Translations under genes and position numbers: made by a program | Shown here: one piece after another, positions 842-18,574 of the stretch | How the letters are laid out: the number at the start of each line of letters is the position of its first letter | How positions within the stretch are numbered: the stretch's first letter is position 1 | Notes under the pieces: model-generated | Seen by the model: only the letters and a program-made list of their open reading frames with translations | The model's database searches: none | Told to the model about the DNA's origin: nothing | DNA from: Alphaproteobacteria bacterium | GTDB taxonomy: Bacteria > Pseudomonadota > Alphaproteobacteria > Rs-D84 | Direction: 5' to 3' | Assembly: GCA_031549365.1 (NCBI GenBank) | Contig: JAVBPX010000001.1 | Location: 130,417 to 194,416 of the forward strand | DNA length: 64,000 bases

Positions 842-2161
842 ATGTCCAAGCCATCAACATTTTTTCTGCAAACTTTTGGATGCCAAATGAATGTGTATGA
901 TGGCAAACGCATATCATCAATGTTGATCCAACACGGATTAAAACATGTTGAAAATGCAGCGGATGCGGATGTCATCATTTTAAATACTTGTTCTGTCCGG
1001 GAAAAGGCATCGGAAAAAATATTTTCAGCACTCGGCCGATTGGAAAAAATAAAATCAAAACGACAGAAATTAACAAAAAGGCCGGTAATTATGGGTATTG
1101 TCGGCTGCGTCGCACGCGAATCCGGCGCGAATGCCTTTCGCCGCCAACGGGCACTAAATTTTGTTTTGGGCCCCCAGAGCTATCATAAATTACCCGAAAT
1201 ATTATTGGATCCCGAAACACCATATTTGGATATTGATTTATCAGGGTTGGAAAAATTTAATGCCCTGCCCGCCGTTCACGAAAGCACGGCTGTTGGTTAT
1301 GTCCCGATCCAAGAAGGTTGCGACCACGTATGCACGTATTGCATTGTTCCATACACTCGCGGCCGCGAATTATCACGCGATATGATGGATATAATGGCCG
1401 AGATTGAACACCTGGCCCACCTGGGCGCAATGGAAATTTGTTTTTTGGGACAAAATGTAAATGGGTATCGCGGGCCAAACGGAAAAACATTGGCCGATTT
1501 AATTCGTGAAACTGCAAAAATACCAGCAATTAAACGAATTTGGTATACATCATCATATCCAACCGAAATGACGGATGAATTGATTGCAATGCACGGGACT
1601 GAACCAAAATTGTTACCAATTGTCCATTTGCCGCTTCAATCTGGGTCGCCCGCCGTTTTAAAACGAATGAACCGTCCGTACGATTTAAATCAATACATAT
1701 CAATTATTGAAAAATTACGCGCTGCACGATCCGATTTACAAATTTCATCCGATTTTATTGTTGGATTTCCTGGGGAAACGGACGACGATTTTAATGAAAC
1801 TGTAAATATCGTTAATAAAATTGGATACATAAATTCGTTCAGTTTTAAATATTCCAAACGTCCGCATACTGCTGCGGCATTAATGATGGATCAAATTCCT
1901 GAAAATATAAAATCGGTTCGTCTAAAAACATTGGACGGGATTTTAAACGAACAACAACGCGCTTTTAATCAATCATTAATTGGAAAAACTTTTTCATGTT
2001 TAATTGATCAAAACGGCAAACTTCCGAACCAAGTTATTGCCCGCACACCATACATGCAGCCCGTGATTTTGGATAATGCGAAACATTTAATGGGCAAATT
2101 GGTTAACGTTAAAATCACATCCGGAAACAAGAGTGCGTTAAGGGGGGATATCATAGAATGA
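842..2161 (+). CDS. miaB: tRNA-i6A37 methylthiotransferase MiaB (radical SAM)
   Basis: 439 aa. N-terminal MTTase domain 'FLQTFGCQMNVYD'. Radical SAM CxxxCxxC motif 'CDHVCTYCIVPY'. C-terminal TRAM-like region. Stop overlaps the next start (ATGA at 2158-2161). Confidence 0.9.
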   Translation: MSKPSTFFLQTFGCQMNVYDGKRISSMLIQHGLKHVENAADADVIILNTCSVREKASEKIFSALGRLEKIKSKRQKLTKRPVIMGIVGCVARESGANAFRRQRALNFVLGPQSYHKLPEILLDPETPYLDIDLSGLEKFNALPAVHESTAVGYVPIQEGCDHVCTYCIVPYTRGRELSRDMMDIMAEIEHLAHLGAMEICFLGQNVNGYRGPNGKTLADLIRETAKIPAIKRIWYTSSYPTEMTDELIAMHGTEPKLLPIVHLPLQSGSPAVLKRMNRPYDLNQYISIIEKLRAARSDLQISSDFIVGFPGETDDDFNETVNIVNKIGYINSFSFKYSKRPHTAAALMMDQIPENIKSVRLKTLDGILNEQQRAFNQSLIGKTFSCLIDQNGKLPNQVIARTPYMQPVILDNAKHLMGKLVNVKITSGNKSALRGDIIE

Positions 2162-4164
2162 CAACAACACACATAACAATAAATGACACTCGCTGGAAAA
2201 ACGCCAAACTTGATTTTGGCACAATTGTTAATCAAACGTTAAAGTATATGGGGCATAAAAAACCCGGGGCCGAGGTTTCAATCCTACTTACCAATGATTC
2301 CGAAATCCAAAAATTAAATTCTGAATATCGCGGCAAAAACAAACCAACAAACGTATTATCATTTGAAACTGGTGATGATATGATGCTGGGCGATATTGTA
2401 TTATCATATGATACAGTTGAACGCGAATCTATATCTGAACACAAATCTTTTAAAAATCATGCGACTCATCTAATTATCCACGGGGTATTACATTTATTGG
2501 GTTACGATCATATTGATGAAAATCAAGCCAATGAAATGGAGGGGTTGGAACAAAAAATCCTTAATACCATGAAAATTGCTGACCCGTATTCTGATAAACA
2601 CCGCAAATTGCCAAAATGGTTGCGCGGTTCATTATTATCATTTGGATTAATGTTGCTGGGTGCATTTACATCCCTTGGGTTTGCTCCAACAAATTTTATT
2701 TGGGCGTCGATTATCGGAATGATTGTTTATTACATTGTAATTTTTCCAAAACACGGATTTATAAATGGAATGAAAACCGGCTTTTGGTTTGGCGCAGGAT
2801 ACGCATTAACCATGTTATCATGGATGACATCATCATTTTTTGTTGACGCAACGGCGGCTGCAACATTTGGTCCATTATTACCACTGGCGTTAATGGGGAT
2901 TGGAATTGGTGGCGGAATTATATTTGGATTGCCTGCGGCACTGACAGCTATGACGCGCGAAACATCCTGGCGACATGCCGTGTTTTTTGCAACATTTTCA
3001 ACATTAATATTATGGGCCCGCGGTTGGATTCTTACTGGATTTCCCTGGAACCCGTTCGGCTTGGTTTTAATGCCATATGCAGCGATCGCAAATTCAATGT
3101 CTTTGATTGGATCATTGGGGCTTTCATTTTTGTTGATCGGTTTGTGTTCAGCAATTGGATTTATAATCGCCAAACGCATATATAAAATACCAGCCCGCAC
3201 AATGGATCAATTAATGGTATCTGTGTTTGCAATATTATTGTTTGCTTGTTCTTGCTATGGGGCATACCGCTTGAATATGGAATTACCAAAACCAATTGCA
3301 AATGTCCGTTTGGTCCAGGCCGCAATCCCACAACAATTCAAATGGGACCCAGAAATGGCAACTGATCACGTAAATAAACACATCATGCTGTCGAATTTAC
3401 CATCAAAAAATCATTTGGATGCCATAATTTGGCCGGAAAGCGCATATCCATTCGTACAATCAAAACCGGTCTTTTTGCCCGCTACCCAAACAAAAATGCG
3501 TGATAATATTTTAATCAGTGGCGCAATATTAAAATCAGATTCAAATTACTATAACGGATTAATTGTTGCGAACACATCTGGCAATATTATCCAAACATAT
3601 CAAAAACATCACTTGGTCCCATTTGGAGAATATAATCCATTTGAAATTATTGGGATGGGCGCATTGGTTCCAATGCCCGGGTCTTTTGGTTCAGGGAATG
3701 GTGTTAAGACGATTGAAACACCAACCTTTTCATTTGCCCCAGCAATCTGCTATGAAATAATTTTTTCAGGCGGAGTTATTGGCGATATAAAACCAAAAAT
3801 GATTTTAAACATCACAAATGATGGTTGGTTTGGAACAACGTCTGGGCCATACCAACATTTAAACTTGGCCATTGCACATGCAATTGAAACTGGAACTTCG
3901 GTTACACGTGTATCATATTCGGGAATATCCGCTGTAATTGATCCTGTTGGATATTTGGTAAACGGAGAACGTACAACCATCACCGACAGCGTAATTTCAA
4001 ACGATGTATCAAACAATATCCCACTACAACAAATGGGCGTGTTGGATGTTTATGTGCCGGGACCAATGTATGCACCGTATTTATGGGTCGGCCCACATAA
4101 AATGATGATATTGATTTTGTTATTGGTATTAATTACGACAAAAATTCGATTTAATCGGAAATAA
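2158..4164 (+). CDS. lnt: In-frame fusion ORF of endoribonuclease YbeY (N-terminal ~140 aa) and apolipoprotein N-acyltransferase Lnt (C-terminal ~520 aa)
   Basis: The N-terminal part has the YbeY zinc motif 'HGVLHLLGYDH'. From 'LRGSLLSFGLMLLGAFTSLGFAP' onward the sequence is Lnt-like: multi-TM N-terminus, then a nitrilase-fold domain with 'WPESAYPF' and 'ICYEIIF'. There is no stop codon between the two parts. Confidence 0.75.
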   Translation: MTTTHITINDTRWKNAKLDFGTIVNQTLKYMGHKKPGAEVSILLTNDSEIQKLNSEYRGKNKPTNVLSFETGDDMMLGDIVLSYDTVERESISEHKSFKNHATHLIIHGVLHLLGYDHIDENQANEMEGLEQKILNTMKIADPYSDKHRKLPKWLRGSLLSFGLMLLGAFTSLGFAPTNFIWASIIGMIVYYIVIFPKHGFINGMKTGFWFGAGYALTMLSWMTSSFFVDATAAATFGPLLPLALMGIGIGGGIIFGLPAALTAMTRETSWRHAVFFATFSTLILWARGWILTGFPWNPFGLVLMPYAAIANSMSLIGSLGLSFLLIGLCSAIGFIIAKRIYKIPARTMDQLMVSVFAILLFACSCYGAYRLNMELPKPIANVRLVQAAIPQQFKWDPEMATDHVNKHIMLSNLPSKNHLDAIIWPESAYPFVQSKPVFLPATQTKMRDNILISGAILKSDSNYYNGLIVANTSGNIIQTYQKHHLVPFGEYNPFEIIGMGALVPMPGSFGSGNGVKTIETPTFSFAPAICYEIIFSGGVIGDIKPKMILNITNDGWFGTTSGPYQHLNLAIAHAIETGTSVTRVSYSGISAVIDPVGYLVNGERTTITDSVISNDVSNNIPLQQMGVLDVYVPGPMYAPYLWVGPHKMMILILLLVLITTKIRFNRK

Positions 4165-4552
4165 CTTTTTTCATATTAATGGCATCAACACCACTGTAAT
4201 ATCCGGGACGTCGCCCTATTTCAACAAAACCTGTTTTTTTGTATAACGATATTGCGGCAATATTTTCAACACTGACTTCTAAAAAAATTGATTTAACTCC
4301 GGCTGATTTTAATTCTTTTTCCATCAATGCTAACATTGTTTCAGCGATCCCGCTTCGACGAGAATTCGGACGAACGGCAATTGTTAATAATTCAGCCTCG
4401 TCCAAAACACTCCGCCATACAATTAATCCATTGTCGGATGCCAAAATCTCGGCCCCAGATTTTTTTAATTCATCAAAATCCGTGGCGCACCAACCATGAT
4501 CCCCAAATGATTCACGATGTAAATCTTCCAATAATTTTATGAATTCTGACAT
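4151..4552 (-). CDS. rimI: GNAT acetyltransferase, probably ribosomal-protein-alanine N-acetyltransferase RimI
   Basis: 133 aa. GNAT acetyl-CoA motif 'RRSGIAETMLALMEKE'. Sits next to tsaB, as in the usual tsaB-rimI arrangement. Confidence 0.7.
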   Translation of the reverse strand: MSEFIKLLEDLHRESFGDHGWCATDFDELKKSGAEILASDNGLIVWRSVLDEAELLTIAVRPNSRRSGIAETMLALMEKELKSAGVKSIFLEVSVENIAAISLYKKTGFVEIGRRPGYYSGVDAINMKKVISD

Positions 4553-5112
4553 GTGTTCTTCTCGGCATAATGGGGGCGCAAATACATGGGAATAACATCT
4601 AAAACACCGGCTTTTTTGTCCATTGCCATGAAACCAAATTTCATATCTGTTGGAATTTTTGTAATGACTTTTAATTCTGTATTTTTAATCTCTTGGTCGG
4701 TCATAGTTGATGGTTCAATTAAAACCGAGCCGTCAGAATTAATTCCGGATACAAAAAAATCTTCGCGACCCGAATTAATTTTGAATAATGCGGCATGCCC
4801 CGAATTTTCGGCCGCCATCATATCGAATACTGATACCGGGACAACCGGGATGTTTAATCCCAACCCAACGCCCTTGGCAAATGCGATTGACAAACGAATG
4901 CCGGTAAAAGAGCCCGGCCCTACAACGACGCCAACTTGGGATAATTCCTTAAATTTAACATCTGCATCATGCAAAACGTCATCGGTCATTTTGATTAAAT
5001 CGACGGCTTGGCGTTCTGCTGTAAATTCACGTGCAAAAATCTGGCCTTTTGTTTCAACGGCCACACGAATATTTTGTGTTGATGTATCAATAAACAATCT
5101 CTTCATTGCCAT
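4537..5112 (-). CDS. tsaB: tRNA threonylcarbamoyladenosine biosynthesis protein TsaB (YeaZ)
   Basis: 191 aa. N-terminal 'KRLFIDTSTQNIRVAV' matches the Kae1/YeaZ family beginning, and the length fits the inactive TsaB paralog. Confidence 0.75.
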   Translation of the reverse strand: MAMKRLFIDTSTQNIRVAVETKGQIFAREFTAERQAVDLIKMTDDVLHDADVKFKELSQVGVVVGPGSFTGIRLSIAFAKGVGLGLNIPVVPVSVFDMMAAENSGHAALFKINSGREDFFVSGINSDGSVLIEPSTMTDQEIKNTELKVITKIPTDMKFGFMAMDKKAGVLDVIPMYLRPHYAEKNTCQNS

Positions 5113-6670: not shown

Positions 6671-8686
6671 TTATTGACCAAACTGCTTATTTTGCTGACT
6701 GGATTGGGTGGTCTTTTTGTTCAATTCATCTTGGATCGATGATAATTTCATAGACATATTTGCAATACATGTATTGGCCTGGTTTGCATCTTTTATTTCA
6801 CTCTCTGAACATCCACTGACGGCACCAACACCAGTTACCCTGTTTGTTGAATAACTGTTAATTGATGACGCTAATTTTGCCAATTGTTTACGCGCCTTGT
6901 CCGACACAGTTTTACCAGAAATCAAACTCTTTGATTGCGACAATTGGTTGTTGAAACAATACATTCTGTCTGTATCAGTTGATTTGATTAAACAATCTTC
7001 GGATGAAACCGATCCCGATGCACCGGATGCGGACGCCGTTAAATCTTCGCCGGATTCAACCCTGGCAATTGCTTTTTGTAACTGCATTTGGAAACGCATG
7101 GTGGTTGATTCCAAATAATTATATTGGCGCTGCATTTCACGTGTTAATAATGTAACCTTGGACGCGATCAAACGATTTAATTCGGCCTTGGACGCTTCGT
7201 CCGTCACAAACTTCGTATCCAAATCTGCGGAATTATAAACTGCGGTTGAACATAATGCATAATACGGATTAACAGAACCTTTGATCCAACCTTTGGTTGG
7301 ATCGAGATCAGATTCCAAAATCCATTGAATTCCCGCTGTTGATATCTTTGCCAAATCCTTGTCCAATTCGATCTGTGTTGATTGACATTTATTCTTCGCC
7401 TTTTCTATGTCTGTTTCATTTCCAGCCTTGGCTGTGACGGTTCCATCAACTGCTAAAACTTTGCGTAATTTTGAAATCGACACACCCTGATCATTATCCA
7501 TAATACCTTCGAAAAAGCCGGAATTCATTGCCGTATCCGATACACATTTAACAACCGTTTTACCAGTTTTATCGATGCTGGACATAAATTTATCTTCTAC
7601 TTCTTGGTTATCTGTGAACAAACGCAACAACTGATCGGGCTTACCATCTTCTGTTTGATACAATCCCCAAACTGAACATGAATTGGTCAACATACGATAA
7701 ATATCATTAACATCAACACCCAATGCCTGGGCTGAAATCAATGCTTTGTAAACTTCGCGGCGCGCATTATCATACGGATCAAAAAATGCTTCGGCCTTTT
7801 GCTTGAAGGCAGCCACGCGTTTTGGCCCGGTACAATTGTCCCCGGTTGCGTTACAACCTGCGTATGTAAATGCATCCTGCATTGCTTTACGCACAGTTGC
7901 CAATGATGCATTAATATTATCCAATTTTGTTAACAATTCGCCGGACGGCGTTGCACGCGCCAATAAATCAGATTGCGATACGCTGGTTTGTTGTTGGGCG
8001 GCTTGAGCCGCCAATACTTCTTGGACCTGTGATGCGGCTTGTTGTTGAGCCATCTGAACTTGCTGATTCATTTGTTCCATTTGTTGCTGCATCATGGCCA
8101 TTTGCTGATTTGTTTGGGCGGATATTGCTGCGGCTTCGGCCTGTTGTGCTTTGCCTGCGGAATCGGCAGCCAATGCGGCGGCAACCGCACTTGAAATTGT
8201 TGGAAATTGTTTACAGCCAAACGCTATACGACCGGATAACGATGACATGCAACCATCGGCAATGCCTGTTGCAACCCCGGAATCCCCACAACCACCGGAT
8301 TTACATTTTGGGGACGCACAACGCAAAACCATTCCATAACAATTATTATAATTTACGCCGTCCGCTTCCAAACAGCCCCGAACCATATCGGTGCAACGTT
8401 GGGACCCAGCCTTGATAATACCGTTTGCAAATGAATTCATATCCAATGTTGCTGCACATTGATCAAAATATTGATCGCATTGGGATGATGCCGTACGTCC
8501 ACCGGATGTTCCCGATGTCCACATTGCATTGTTTGCCCCGCCAAAATTGCTGGACGCTGATGTTAAATTTCCACCGCCACCAAAAATCGCAGGCGCTGGT
8601 CCCGTTACCGGGTTCGCAGCATACAACAAAACCGGGCATAATAACATCCCACAAAAAACTGCCAATAAACCGGTTTTTTTAACCAT
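6671..8686 (-). CDS. Large secreted Cys-rich, Gly/Ser/Gln-rich hypothetical protein
   Basis: 671 aa. Signal peptide 'MVKKTGLLAVFCGMLLCPVLLYAANPV'. Gly/Ser-rich tract near the N-terminus. More than 25 Cys. Gln/Ala-rich coiled-coil-like tract 'MAMMQQQMEQMNQQVQMAQQQAASQVQEVLAAQAAQQQ'. I recognise no known catalytic motif. Confidence 0.6.
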   Translation of the reverse strand: MVKKTGLLAVFCGMLLCPVLLYAANPVTGPAPAIFGGGGNLTSASSNFGGANNAMWTSGTSGGRTASSQCDQYFDQCAATLDMNSFANGIIKAGSQRCTDMVRGCLEADGVNYNNCYGMVLRCASPKCKSGGCGDSGVATGIADGCMSSLSGRIAFGCKQFPTISSAVAAALAADSAGKAQQAEAAAISAQTNQQMAMMQQQMEQMNQQVQMAQQQAASQVQEVLAAQAAQQQTSVSQSDLLARATPSGELLTKLDNINASLATVRKAMQDAFTYAGCNATGDNCTGPKRVAAFKQKAEAFFDPYDNARREVYKALISAQALGVDVNDIYRMLTNSCSVWGLYQTEDGKPDQLLRLFTDNQEVEDKFMSSIDKTGKTVVKCVSDTAMNSGFFEGIMDNDQGVSISKLRKVLAVDGTVTAKAGNETDIEKAKNKCQSTQIELDKDLAKISTAGIQWILESDLDPTKGWIKGSVNPYYALCSTAVYNSADLDTKFVTDEASKAELNRLIASKVTLLTREMQRQYNYLESTTMRFQMQLQKAIARVESGEDLTASASGASGSVSSEDCLIKSTDTDRMYCFNNQLSQSKSLISGKTVSDKARKQLAKLASSINSYSTNRVTGVGAVSGCSESEIKDANQANTCIANMSMKLSSIQDELNKKTTQSSQQNKQFGQ

Positions 8687-17794: not shown

Positions 17795-18574
17795 ATGAAA
17801 AATAATTTTTTTAACGAACAATCTTTAAATTCTGATATTAAAACTCAGATTATCTTAGCTACATTTAAACTTTGGCTTCAAGACAATAAAAAGGAACAAA
17901 ATCTATCTTATATTGATCTATTTTCAGGGCCTGGCATATATGATGATGGAACATTATCTACACCGATATGTATTTTACAGGAAATTTGCAATAATAAGAG
18001 AATGGCACAGAGATTCAATGTGATCTTAAATGATTATAATGCAGAATTTATTGCAAAATTGCGTCGTATGATTTTGAATGTGAAAAATGCTAGGTTTATA
18101 AAAACTTTGGTTACTTCGATTGGTAATGCTGAAAGTTTTCAAAAGACCGTATCTAATAATGAACATATCTTCATGTTAATTGATCCTTGGGGATGGAAGG
18201 GTATAAATAGAAATTATATTAATAATATGTTATTAAATAAGGACTGTGATATTGCGGTGATGTTTAATTTTAATCAGTTTAATCGGTTTATGAATTTTGA
18301 TATCGCAGATGAATTGTTTAATGATTTGTTTGATAAAAAAACTTTGCACGAAATACGTAAATTTTGTAGCACAAATCCAAAATCGGAAAGAGAACAATTC
18401 GTGATAGATAAATTTGTGAAAATGGTTTGTAAAAATTGTGAAAATTGTAATTACACGCCATTTAAATTTAAGATGGAAAAATCGACGCGTACAAGCCATT
18501 ATATTATTTTTATAATTCGTGATAAAGATAGATTTCAAGCAACGAAAACTTTGTTAAATCAATACTTGGCTTGA
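17795..18574 (+). CDS. Hypothetical protein, candidate three-Cys-motif partner protein (TcmP-like) with a methyltransferase-like 'DLFSGPG' motif
   Basis: 259 aa. Good SD 'aagggag' 7 nt upstream. 'YIDLFSGPGIY' resembles SAM-MTase motif I and 'IDPWGWKG' is a possible motif-IV-like element. Directly upstream of a Gp37/Gp68 (DUF5131) gene. Confidence 0.5.
   Translation: MKNNFFNEQSLNSDIKTQIILATFKLWLQDNKKEQNLSYIDLFSGPGIYDDGTLSTPICILQEICNNKRMAQRFNVILNDYNAEFIAKLRRMILNVKNARFIKTLVTSIGNAESFQKTVSNNEHIFMLIDPWGWKGINRNYINNMLLNKDCDIAVMFNFNQFNRFMNFDIADELFNDLFDKKTLHEIRKFCSTNPKSEREQFVIDKFVKMVCKNCENCNYTPFKFKMEKSTRTSHYIIFIIRDKDRFQATKTLLNQYLA

What the first reader, a model, noticed from the sequence alone, without database searches (positions are those of the whole stretch)
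2158..4164. ybeY and lnt read as one in-frame 668-aa ORF, with the corC gene usually found between them absent
Seen in sequence:
- The YbeY zinc-binding motif 'HGVLHLLGYDH' lies at residues ~105-118.
- There is no stop codon before the Lnt N-terminal TM region 'LRGSLLSFGLMLLGAF...'.
- The ORF continues through the Lnt nitrilase-fold domain to 4164.

Established knowledge is that the usual alphaproteobacterial order is ybeY-corC/tlyC-lnt. Here the CBS/CorC gene is missing and the flanking genes are fused in frame.

This could be a real fusion: a cytoplasmic N-terminal RNase domain on a membrane acyltransferase is topologically possible. It could also be loss of the ybeY stop by mutation or sequencing error, with Lnt initiated internally at the Met in 'NTMKIADPY'.
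Basis: partly seen in the sequence, partly recalled or inferred. Interest (0 to 1): 0.5.

Follow-up and report, generated by a model that had tools for sequence, protein, structure and literature searches.

The report
Conserved YbeY–Lnt fusion gene, real
The ribosomal-RNA-processing nuclease YbeY and the membrane lipoprotein acyltransferase Lnt really are encoded as one protein here; the same fusion is kept across a deep group of uncultured alphaproteobacteria, so it is a real but modest domain-architecture variant and not a sequencing error.

Summary
Window 2158..4164 (+) is one 668-aa ORF with a complete YbeY domain (residues ~13-145), a ~20-residue basic linker and a complete Lnt (residues ~158-662). 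E. coli CorC/YbeX and PhoH/YbeZ queries find nothing in the 64 kb, and miaB abuts the ORF through an ATGA overlap.

It is not an error. The 120 best database homologues (35-47% identical, many independent assemblies) all carry YbeY + LNT_N + CN_hydrolase. All 120 keep the Lnt E-K-C triad and 119 keep the YbeY HxxxHxxxxxH motif. The linker varies from 39 to 82 residues but stays in frame.

Relatives show the route. The canonical order is miaB-ybeZ-ybeY-ybeX-lnt. Some lineages have lost corC, leaving ybeY and lnt abutting or overlapping by 8 nt. The fused state follows. The fusion is rare, about 11 of the 150 best 50%-identity representatives. It lies mainly in one clade, with one probable independent fusion and one nested unfused Lnt.

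An AlphaFold model (pLDDT 90.6) has seven helices between YbeY and the periplasmic nitrilase domain. This places YbeY in the cytoplasm, tethered to the inner membrane.

I found no paper describing the fusion, and public records call it simply Lnt. Whether the tethering has a function is unknown.

The parts
842..2161 (+). miaB (tRNA methylthiotransferase). Its TGA stop overlaps the ATG of the fusion gene (ATGA at 2158-2161). No ybeZ/phoH lies between them.
   Evidence: Pfam UPF0004 + Radical_SAM + TRAM. tblastn with E. coli MiaB: 42% identity, 1e-109. The same 4-nt overlap is seen in L029 and L031.
2158..4164 (+). Single ybeY::lnt fusion ORF, 668 aa.
   Evidence: An identical protein, P0001, is in the public collection.
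2158..2592 (+). YbeY endoribonuclease domain (residues 1-145), predicted to be cytoplasmic.
   Evidence: PF02130 5e-36 and TIGR00043 5.5e-40. Aligns to E. coli YbeY residues 38-151 of 155. Foldseek match to 1xm5, TM-score (target-normalised) 0.79.
2479..2511 (+). Zinc-binding motif H108-x3-H112-x5-H118 (HGVLHLLGYDH).
   Evidence: Read in the sequence. Conserved in 120, 120 and 119 of 120 fused homologues for the three His.
2569..2628 (+). Junction/linker, residues 138-157 (MKIADPYSDKHRKLPKWLRG). It comprises the YbeY C-terminal 'DPY' tail, then a basic stretch leading into TM1. No stop codon.
   Evidence: Model coil 138-157, block pLDDT 73-82. No Shine-Dalgarno-supported in-frame start here. 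The pre-TM1 segment is net positive in 103 of 116 homologues.
2629..3273 (+). Lnt membrane domain, seven predicted transmembrane helices (residues 158-372).
   Evidence: PF20154 LNT_N. Model helices 158-174, 181-195, 201-219, 231-265, 272-291, 314-341 and 348-372. Hydropathy peaks.
3292..4059 (+). Lnt nitrilase-fold (CN_hydrolase) catalytic domain, residues 379-634, periplasmic. Triad E427 (3436-3438), K483 (3604-3606), C531 (3748-3750).
   Evidence: PF00795 3.2e-19. Triad invariant in 120 of 120. Foldseek to Lnt structures 8aq2, 5n6m and 8b0o, target-normalised TM-score 0.8-0.83.
4075..4143 (+). Eighth transmembrane helix (residues 640-662), returning the C-terminus to the cytoplasm.
   Evidence: Model helix 640-662. 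Hydropathy peak 642-660.

Best explanation
This is a real, evolutionarily maintained gene fusion. It encodes one bifunctional inner-membrane protein. The N-terminal ~145 residues form a complete YbeY zinc endoribonuclease domain, which in other organisms matures the 16S rRNA 3' end and takes part in ribosome quality control. A short basic linker joins it directly to TM1 of a complete apolipoprotein N-acyltransferase (Lnt). Seven membrane helices separate the linker from the nitrilase-fold domain, which must face the periplasm. YbeY therefore sits on the cytoplasmic face, tethered to the membrane, while Lnt acylates lipoproteins on the other side.

The probable origin (inferred) is as follows. 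The ancestral operon miaB-ybeZ-ybeY-ybeX(corC)-lnt lost corC, so the ybeY stop and the lnt start came to abut or overlap. A small frame-restoring change then removed the stop. The fusion was kept because Lnt's N-terminus is cytoplasmic and both enzymes still work.

Shown here: the fusion is real, it is conserved, both active sites are preserved, and the topology is consistent. Inferred: both activities are actually retained, and the product stays uncleaved. Unknown: whether tethering YbeY to the membrane is adaptive or just tolerated compaction.
For: One ORF with both complete domains. The 120 best homologues are 35-47% identical, 596-724 aa, come from NCBI, JGI, ENA and Logan assemblies, and all carry PF02130 + PF20154 + PF00795. 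Seven species genomes have an uninterrupted single frame at DNA level. The YbeY His triad is kept in 119-120 of 120 and the Lnt E-K-C triad in 120 of 120; the distance from the third zinc-motif His to TM1 is 39-82 residues and always in frame, and in some members YbeY's last helix runs straight into TM1 with no Met. R58 and many other residues in both halves are invariant in 74 sequences. Synteny gatCAB-miaB-ybeY::lnt is shared with P0002 (47% identity) and P0010 (44%), with the same ATGA overlap with miaB. Intermediate states exist: L008 has TAA-G-ATG between ybeY and lnt; L038/L039 have an 8-nt overlap; L040 has a short gap; none has corC. The canonical order is found in L009, L011, L012, L023 and E. 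coli. The AlphaFold2 model has pLDDT 90.6 and pTM 0.87, with seven helices, then the nitrilase domain, then an eighth helix. It matches solved Lnt and YbeY structures. The pre-TM1 segment is net positive in 103 of 116 homologues.
Against: There is no expression, proteomic or read-level evidence for this genome. In-frame ATG/TTG codons exist at the junction (Met138, Leu151, Leu155). Shine-Dalgarno use is weak genome-wide (10 of 31 long ORFs), so internal initiation of a separate Lnt cannot be excluded from the sequence. The top-120 list is biased towards fused proteins, because two matching domains score higher than one. One unfused Lnt (P0170) nests inside the fused clade in a neighbour-joining tree, so the fusion is not obligatory. 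Whether these genomes also carry a free ybeY, lnt, corC or phoH elsewhere could not be checked.
Confidence: 0.88

Rival explanations
1. Artefact or very recent lesion: a sequencing or assembly error, or a fresh stop-codon loss in this genome, joins two genes that are really separate.
For: Only one assembly-level sequence is available for this organism. Separate, abutting or overlapping ybeY and lnt genes exist in other alphaproteobacterial lineages (L008, L038, L040), so a single indel would be enough to create a false fusion. One fused representative (P0137) is known from a single contig in a lineage whose relatives are unfused.
Against: The fused state is shared by every close relative found. 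This includes P0002, with the same synteny in several independent contigs. The linker shows the positive-inside character expected of a translated segment. An identical protein is already predicted from public NCBI and Logan assemblies.
Confidence: 0.02
2. Fused reading frame but separate proteins: Lnt is additionally or mainly translated from an internal start (Met138, Leu151 or Leu155), or the linker is cleaved after membrane insertion. Free YbeY and ordinary Lnt would then be the functional species.
For: In-frame ATG at 2569 and TTG at 2608 and 2620 lie just upstream of TM1. The linker is the least confident part of the model (block pLDDT 73-82) and varies in length. Shine-Dalgarno motifs are dispensable for most genes in this window.
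Against: No Shine-Dalgarno-like motif lies at a suitable distance from those codons. Several family members have no Met in the linker, and the shortest junctions (P0007, P0009, P0010) leave almost no spacer. If the halves were made separately, nothing would select for keeping the frame across 120 diverged sequences with variable linkers.
Confidence: 0.1
3. The YbeY moiety is a decaying or repurposed appendage, for example a cytoplasmic regulatory domain of Lnt, while the real ribosomal YbeY function is supplied by another copy elsewhere in the genome.
For: Standalone YbeY proteins 50-64% identical to this domain are abundant in alphaproteobacterial metagenome-assembled genomes. Whole genomes of the fused lineages could not be searched for a second copy.
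Against: The zinc motif, R58 and many other YbeY residues are invariant across fused members. The domain scores as a full-length equivalog and folds like solved YbeY. The standalone YbeY genes whose loci were examined belong to lineages with an unfused lnt immediately next to them, not to fused genomes. No second ybeY is present in about 180 kb of fused-lineage DNA examined.
Confidence: 0.05

Closest known systems
E. coli / proteobacterial ybeZ-ybeY-ybeX(corC)-lnt operon, downstream of miaB
   Same: The same genes occur in the same order and orientation: miaB, then ybeY, then lnt. YbeY aligns to E. coli YbeY residues 38-151 and Lnt to E. coli Lnt residues 17-458. The operon is described in bioRxiv 10.1101/2023.03.20.533420 and PMC12421838.
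   Different: ybeZ and ybeX are absent from the locus and from the whole window. In addition, ybeY and lnt are one reading frame instead of two genes separated by corC.
Alphaproteobacterial lineages with adjacent but separate ybeY and lnt (L008 mouse-gut MAG; L038/L039 human-gut lineage; L040/L041)
   Same: corC is already lost and ybeY is directly followed by lnt. The L038 Lnt is 40.6% identical to the Lnt part of the fused protein P0137 and shares its synteny.
   Different: A stop codon is retained (TAA-G-ATG, an 8-nt ATGAATAA overlap, or a 12-48 nt gap) and lnt is in a different frame, so two polypeptides are made.
Other Lnt fusion proteins, e.g. mycobacterial Ppm1, in which an Lnt domain is fused to polyprenol-phosphate-mannose synthase (my own knowledge, not tested here)
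   Same: Lnt tolerates being part of a larger bifunctional polypeptide, with the partner on the cytoplasmic side. An 816-aa Lnt representative with a long C-terminal extension appeared (P0167).
   Different: There the partner is another envelope-biosynthesis enzyme joined at the C-terminus. Here the partner is an RNA-processing nuclease joined at the N-terminus.
Membrane-anchored bacterial ribonucleases: RNase E (amphipathic membrane-targeting sequence; PMC12594526) and RNase Y (N-terminal TM helix; my own knowledge)
   Same: A cytoplasmic RNA-processing enzyme is held at the inner face of the membrane.
   Different: Those enzymes use dedicated anchors. Here the anchor is a complete, catalytically intact enzyme from an unrelated pathway. 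YbeY itself is soluble in every organism studied so far.

Membership tests
YbeY endoribonuclease (Pfam PF02130 / NCBIfam TIGR00043) | Profile match above the curated cut-off over essentially the whole model | tested here: met
   PF02130: 123.9 bits (cut-off 25), model positions 10-128 of 129. TIGR00043: 136.4 bits (cut-off 45), positions 7-145 of 146.
YbeY endoribonuclease (Pfam PF02130 / NCBIfam TIGR00043) | Zinc-binding H-x3-H-x5-H motif and conserved Arg (E. coli R59 equivalent) | tested here: met
   H108, H112, H118 and R58 are present and invariant or nearly so in fused homologues.
YbeY endoribonuclease (Pfam PF02130 / NCBIfam TIGR00043) | YbeY fold | tested here: met
   The model matches 1xm5, 7y7o and 1oz9 with target-normalised TM-score 0.77-0.85.
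YbeY endoribonuclease (Pfam PF02130 / NCBIfam TIGR00043) | Single-strand RNA endonuclease activity / 16S rRNA 3' maturation | not testable with these tools
   Needs biochemistry or complementation of a ybeY mutant.
Apolipoprotein N-acyltransferase Lnt (NCBIfam TIGR00546; Pfam PF20154 + PF00795) | Profile match above the curated cut-off | tested here: met
   TIGR00546: 239 bits (cut-off 132.9). PF20154: 56.6 bits. PF00795: 69.7 bits.
Apolipoprotein N-acyltransferase Lnt (NCBIfam TIGR00546; Pfam PF20154 + PF00795) | Catalytic Glu-Lys-Cys triad of the nitrilase fold (E. coli E267/K335/C387) | tested here: met
   E427, K483 and C531 lie in WPE, QKHHLVPFGE and ICYE contexts and are invariant in 120 of 120.
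Apolipoprotein N-acyltransferase Lnt (NCBIfam TIGR00546; Pfam PF20154 + PF00795) | Eight-TM topology with the nitrilase domain between TM7 and TM8 | tested here: met
   Helix pattern of the model. Foldseek target-normalised TM-score 0.77-0.83 to E. coli and P. aeruginosa Lnt structures.
Apolipoprotein N-acyltransferase Lnt (NCBIfam TIGR00546; Pfam PF20154 + PF00795) | N-acylation of apolipoproteins | not testable with these tools
   Needs an lnt-depletion complementation or an in-vitro assay.
Canonical ybeZYX-lnt operon | Separate ybeZ, ybeY, ybeX and lnt genes in that order | tested here: not met
   ybeZ and ybeX are undetectable in the window, and ybeY and lnt are one ORF.

The most novel reading that the evidence does not exclude
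The fusion is a 'Rosetta stone' for a real functional link between small-subunit ribosome maturation or quality control and outer-membrane lipoprotein biogenesis. In this reading, tethering the universally conserved RNase YbeY to Lnt is adaptive in these bacteria. It could localise late 30S maturation at the membrane, or couple YbeY dosage or activity to envelope growth. It would also explain why lnt has stayed in the ybeZYX operon from gamma- to alphaproteobacteria. The fused lineages would then run an essential ribosome-maturation step entirely from a membrane-anchored enzyme, without YbeZ and CorC at the locus.
Probability: 0.15. Interest if true: 0.65.

Novelty: new variant of a known kind. 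Interest (0 to 1): 0.35.

Why it matters
YbeY is one of the few RNases conserved in nearly all bacteria and organelles, and its exact role is still debated. Why it sits in an operon with a Mg/Co efflux-type protein and the lipoprotein acyltransferase has no accepted explanation. A natural, long-maintained covalent fusion shows that YbeY can work (inferred) while pinned to the inner membrane next to Lnt, apparently without YbeZ and CorC as neighbours. This gives an experimentally tractable handle: express the fusion or its split halves in E. coli ybeY and lnt mutants to ask whether membrane localisation matters. In practical terms, public annotation calls these proteins only 'apolipoprotein N-acyltransferase'. 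Genome surveys could therefore wrongly score these lineages as lacking ybeY. If the fusion is only tolerated compaction, it is a tidy but ordinary example of operon-neighbour fusion in small, AT-rich genomes.

Tried and rejected
- An exact-sequence look-up of the window protein's contig found no record, so the source organism and reads could not be inspected.
- The AlphaFold-database fold library was not available, so I could not see whether UniProt already holds and names this architecture.
- A search with the YbeY domain alone returned only standalone YbeY proteins and omitted even the identical self-hit. Its candidate filter evidently disfavours long proteins, so I used it only to find unfused relatives, not as evidence that fused YbeY domains are absent.
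- A Shine-Dalgarno scan for an internal Lnt start was uninformative, because only 10 of 31 long ORFs in the window have such a motif.
- A strict single origin of the fusion was supported by the first tree (100/100 bootstraps). It failed when the nearest unfused representatives were added: P0170 nests inside the fused clade and P0137 falls outside. I therefore claim only one main clade, plus at least one probable independent fusion and one loss.
- Six literature searches found no description of a YbeY-Lnt fusion. The library lacks most subscription journals, so this is not proof of absence.
- I considered a decaying YbeY pseudo-domain and rejected it because the active site is conserved.
Full report
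**1. Observation**

The window contains one ORF at 2158..4164 on the + strand, 668 aa, starting with ATG. I read the DNA directly.
- The zinc motif HGVLHLLGYDH is at residues 108-118 (nt 2479-2511).
- 'NTMKIADPY' contains Met138 (nt 2569).
- 'LRGSLLSFGLMLLGAF' begins at residue 155.
- No stop occurs before 4162-4164.

Profile searches find both families in full.
- Pfam: YbeY at 19-137 (5e-36), LNT_N at 168-330 and CN_hydrolase at 383-603.
- NCBIfam equivalogs: Lnt at 239 bits against a cut-off of 132.9, and YbeY at 136 bits against a cut-off of 45.
- Solved structures: residues 37-145 align to E. coli YbeY 38-151 of 155, and residues 164-600 align to E. coli Lnt 17-458.

So an essentially complete YbeY is joined to an essentially complete Lnt by about 20 residues.

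I fetched the E. coli miaB-ybeZ-ybeY-ybeX-lnt region and used its proteins in tblastn against the window. MiaB, YbeY and Lnt each hit once, at this locus. YbeX/CorC and YbeZ/PhoH hit nothing in 64 kb. miaB (842..2161) overlaps the fusion's start codon by ATGA.

**2. Is it an error?**

No. A search of 5.8 billion proteins returned the identical protein plus 119 others. These are 35-47% identical and 596-724 aa long, and come from NCBI, JGI, ENA and Logan assemblies. All carry PF02130 + PF20154 + PF00795. Where named, they are called only 'apolipoprotein N-acyltransferase' from 'Rickettsiales bacterium' or 'Alphaproteobacteria bacterium' metagenome-assembled genomes. This list is biased towards fusions, because two matching domains score higher than one, so I checked independently.
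- A scan of GTDB species genomes gave 27 loci.
- In L001-L007 the YbeY and Lnt matches lie in one uninterrupted frame. These come from gut, rumen and faecal metagenome-assembled genomes, including Candidatus Enterousia scatequi.
- The nearest relative, P0002 (47% identity), and P0010 (44%) share the synteny gatCAB-miaB-ybeY::lnt, with the same 4-nt miaB overlap. P0002 also shares the downstream rimI, tsaB and recF. Each occurs in more than one independent assembly.

**3. Are both halves functional?**

- In an alignment of the 120 proteins, the three YbeY histidines are kept in 120, 120 and 119 sequences.
- The Lnt Glu-Lys-Cys triad (E427, K483, C531 here) is kept in all 120.
- A 74-sequence alignment has invariant residues throughout both halves, including R58.
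- The distance from the third histidine to the GF[AS]P motif of TM1 ranges from 39 to 82 residues (median 61).
- In the shortest members (P0007, P0009, P0010) the last YbeY helix runs almost directly into TM1, with no methionine available.

A frame kept open across a linker of variable length, with both active sites intact, indicates selection on a translated fusion.

**4. Topology**

AlphaFold2 on the 74-sequence alignment gave mean pLDDT 90.6 and pTM 0.87. The model reads, in order:
- a YbeY α/β domain to residue 137;
- a coil at 138-157, where the 10-residue-block pLDDT is 73-82;
- seven long helices between residues 158 and 372;
- a β-rich domain at 379-634;
- a final helix at 640-662.

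Foldseek matched E. coli and P. aeruginosa Lnt structures with target-normalised TM-scores of 0.77-0.83, and YbeY structures with 0.77-0.85. The Lnt nitrilase domain works in the periplasm (established from the solved structures), and seven helices precede it. The N-terminal YbeY domain must therefore be cytoplasmic. The 15 residues before TM1 are net positive in 103 of 116 homologues (median +3), consistent with the positive-inside rule.

**5. How it arose**

Relatives show three states.
- Canonical: miaB-ybeZ-ybeY-ybeX-lnt in L009, L011, L012, L023 and E. coli.
- Intermediate: corC lost, with ybeY and lnt adjacent but separate.
  - L008 has TAA-G-ATG at the junction.
  - The abundant human-gut lineage L038/L039 has an 8-nt overlap, ATGAATAA.
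  - L040/L041 has a 12-48 nt gap.
- Fused.

From the overlapping state, a single small indel would create the fusion.

**6. How common, and how many origins**

An exhaustive HMMER search of 1.84 billion 50%-identity representatives gave 1,912 hits at E<=1e-30. Only about 11 of the best 150 cover both domains. Everything scoring below about 240 bits is Lnt alone. The architecture is therefore rare.

A neighbour-joining tree of the Lnt part against the GTDB loci put all fused sequences in one clade with 100/100 bootstraps. Adding the nearest unfused representatives changed the picture.
- P0170 is an unfused Lnt that nests inside the fused clade. Its upstream gene is a Cys-rich secreted protein, not ybeY.
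- P0137 is fused but falls outside the clade. Its Lnt part is 40.6% identical to the unfused L038 Lnt, against 31-36% to main-clade fusions. It shares the mlaD-ybeY-lnt-dksA-trx synteny of L038.

I conclude that there is one old main clade, a probable second independent fusion (known from a single contig, so an error cannot be excluded there) and at least one secondary loss. Neighbour-joining trees are crude, and these event counts are provisional.

**7. Mechanism and rivals**

- Best-supported reading: a bifunctional membrane protein, with cytoplasmic, membrane-tethered YbeY and periplasmic Lnt chemistry.
- Internal initiation of Lnt at Met138, Leu151 or Leu155 cannot be excluded for this genome. 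No Shine-Dalgarno-like motif sits at a suitable distance, but only 10 of 31 long ORFs in the window have one.
- Linker cleavage also cannot be excluded.
- A decaying YbeY appendage is unlikely, given its conservation.
- A sequencing error is effectively excluded.

Whether the tether is adaptive or just tolerated compaction is not resolved by any data here. I put the adaptive, functionally coupled reading at about 0.15.

**8. Comparison with what is known, and novelty**

Both domains pass every sequence and structure membership test for their families. The locus fails the canonical operon definition.

Papers on the ybeZYX-lnt operon describe separate genes only (10.1101/2023.03.20.533420; PMC12421838). 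Six full-text searches found no paper mentioning a YbeY-Lnt fusion. The library lacks most subscription journals.

The proteins are in public databases, but annotated only as Lnt. I classify this as a new variant of a known kind: an undescribed but database-visible domain architecture that makes YbeY a membrane-anchored RNase. Interest is moderate to low (0.35). The finding is real and conserved and bears on an unexplained operon association. It remains a fusion of two well-understood neighbouring genes with no demonstrated new function.

Noticed in passing
window 842-2161 / 2158: ybeZ (phoH-like), which normally lies between miaB and ybeY and is a reported YbeY partner, is also absent. miaB and the fusion gene overlap by ATGA, which suggests translational coupling. 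No ybeZ or ybeX homologue was found in the window or in about 180 kb of fused-lineage flanks.
   Followed up: partly
homologues P0038-P0120 (linker between YbeY and TM1), e.g. P0101, P0116, P0120: 37 of 116 fused homologues carry a Cys-rich insertion in the linker, such as 'CSDLSCCPG' or 'CCDADCCPGGG'. The window protein lacks it. It could be a small metal-binding or lipidation element at the membrane face. It is unexplained.
   Followed up: partly
window 6671-8686 (-): A 671-aa ORF with a signal-peptide-like N-terminus, a Cys-rich region and a long Gln/Ala-rich stretch. It has no Pfam match at 1e-5. The 259-aa ORF at 17795-18574 likewise has no match.
   Followed up: no
window 4151-4164 and 4537-4552: The genome is tightly packed. 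The rimI-like GNAT gene (4151..4552, -) overlaps the 3' end of the fusion gene convergently by 14 nt. tsaB (4537..5112, -) overlaps rimI by 16 nt. The same rimI/tsaB/recF arrangement follows the fusion in P0002 (L029).
   Followed up: partly
L035 1102-1626 and 5195-8080: In the one lineage with an unfused Lnt nested in the fused clade (P0170), the upstream gene encodes a 174-aa Cys-rich secreted protein instead of YbeY. A Cas9-like gene (HNH + RuvC) lies about 2 kb downstream.
   Followed up: no
P0167: An 816-aa representative has Lnt at residues 20-452 and a long C-terminal extension. This is a different Lnt fusion architecture. I did not examine it.
   Followed up: no
(tool behaviour): Searching with the YbeY domain alone returned only 103-258-aa proteins and not the identical 668-aa self-hit. 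The word-based candidate filter appears to under-rank long multidomain proteins, which could hide fusions in similar searches.
   Followed up: no
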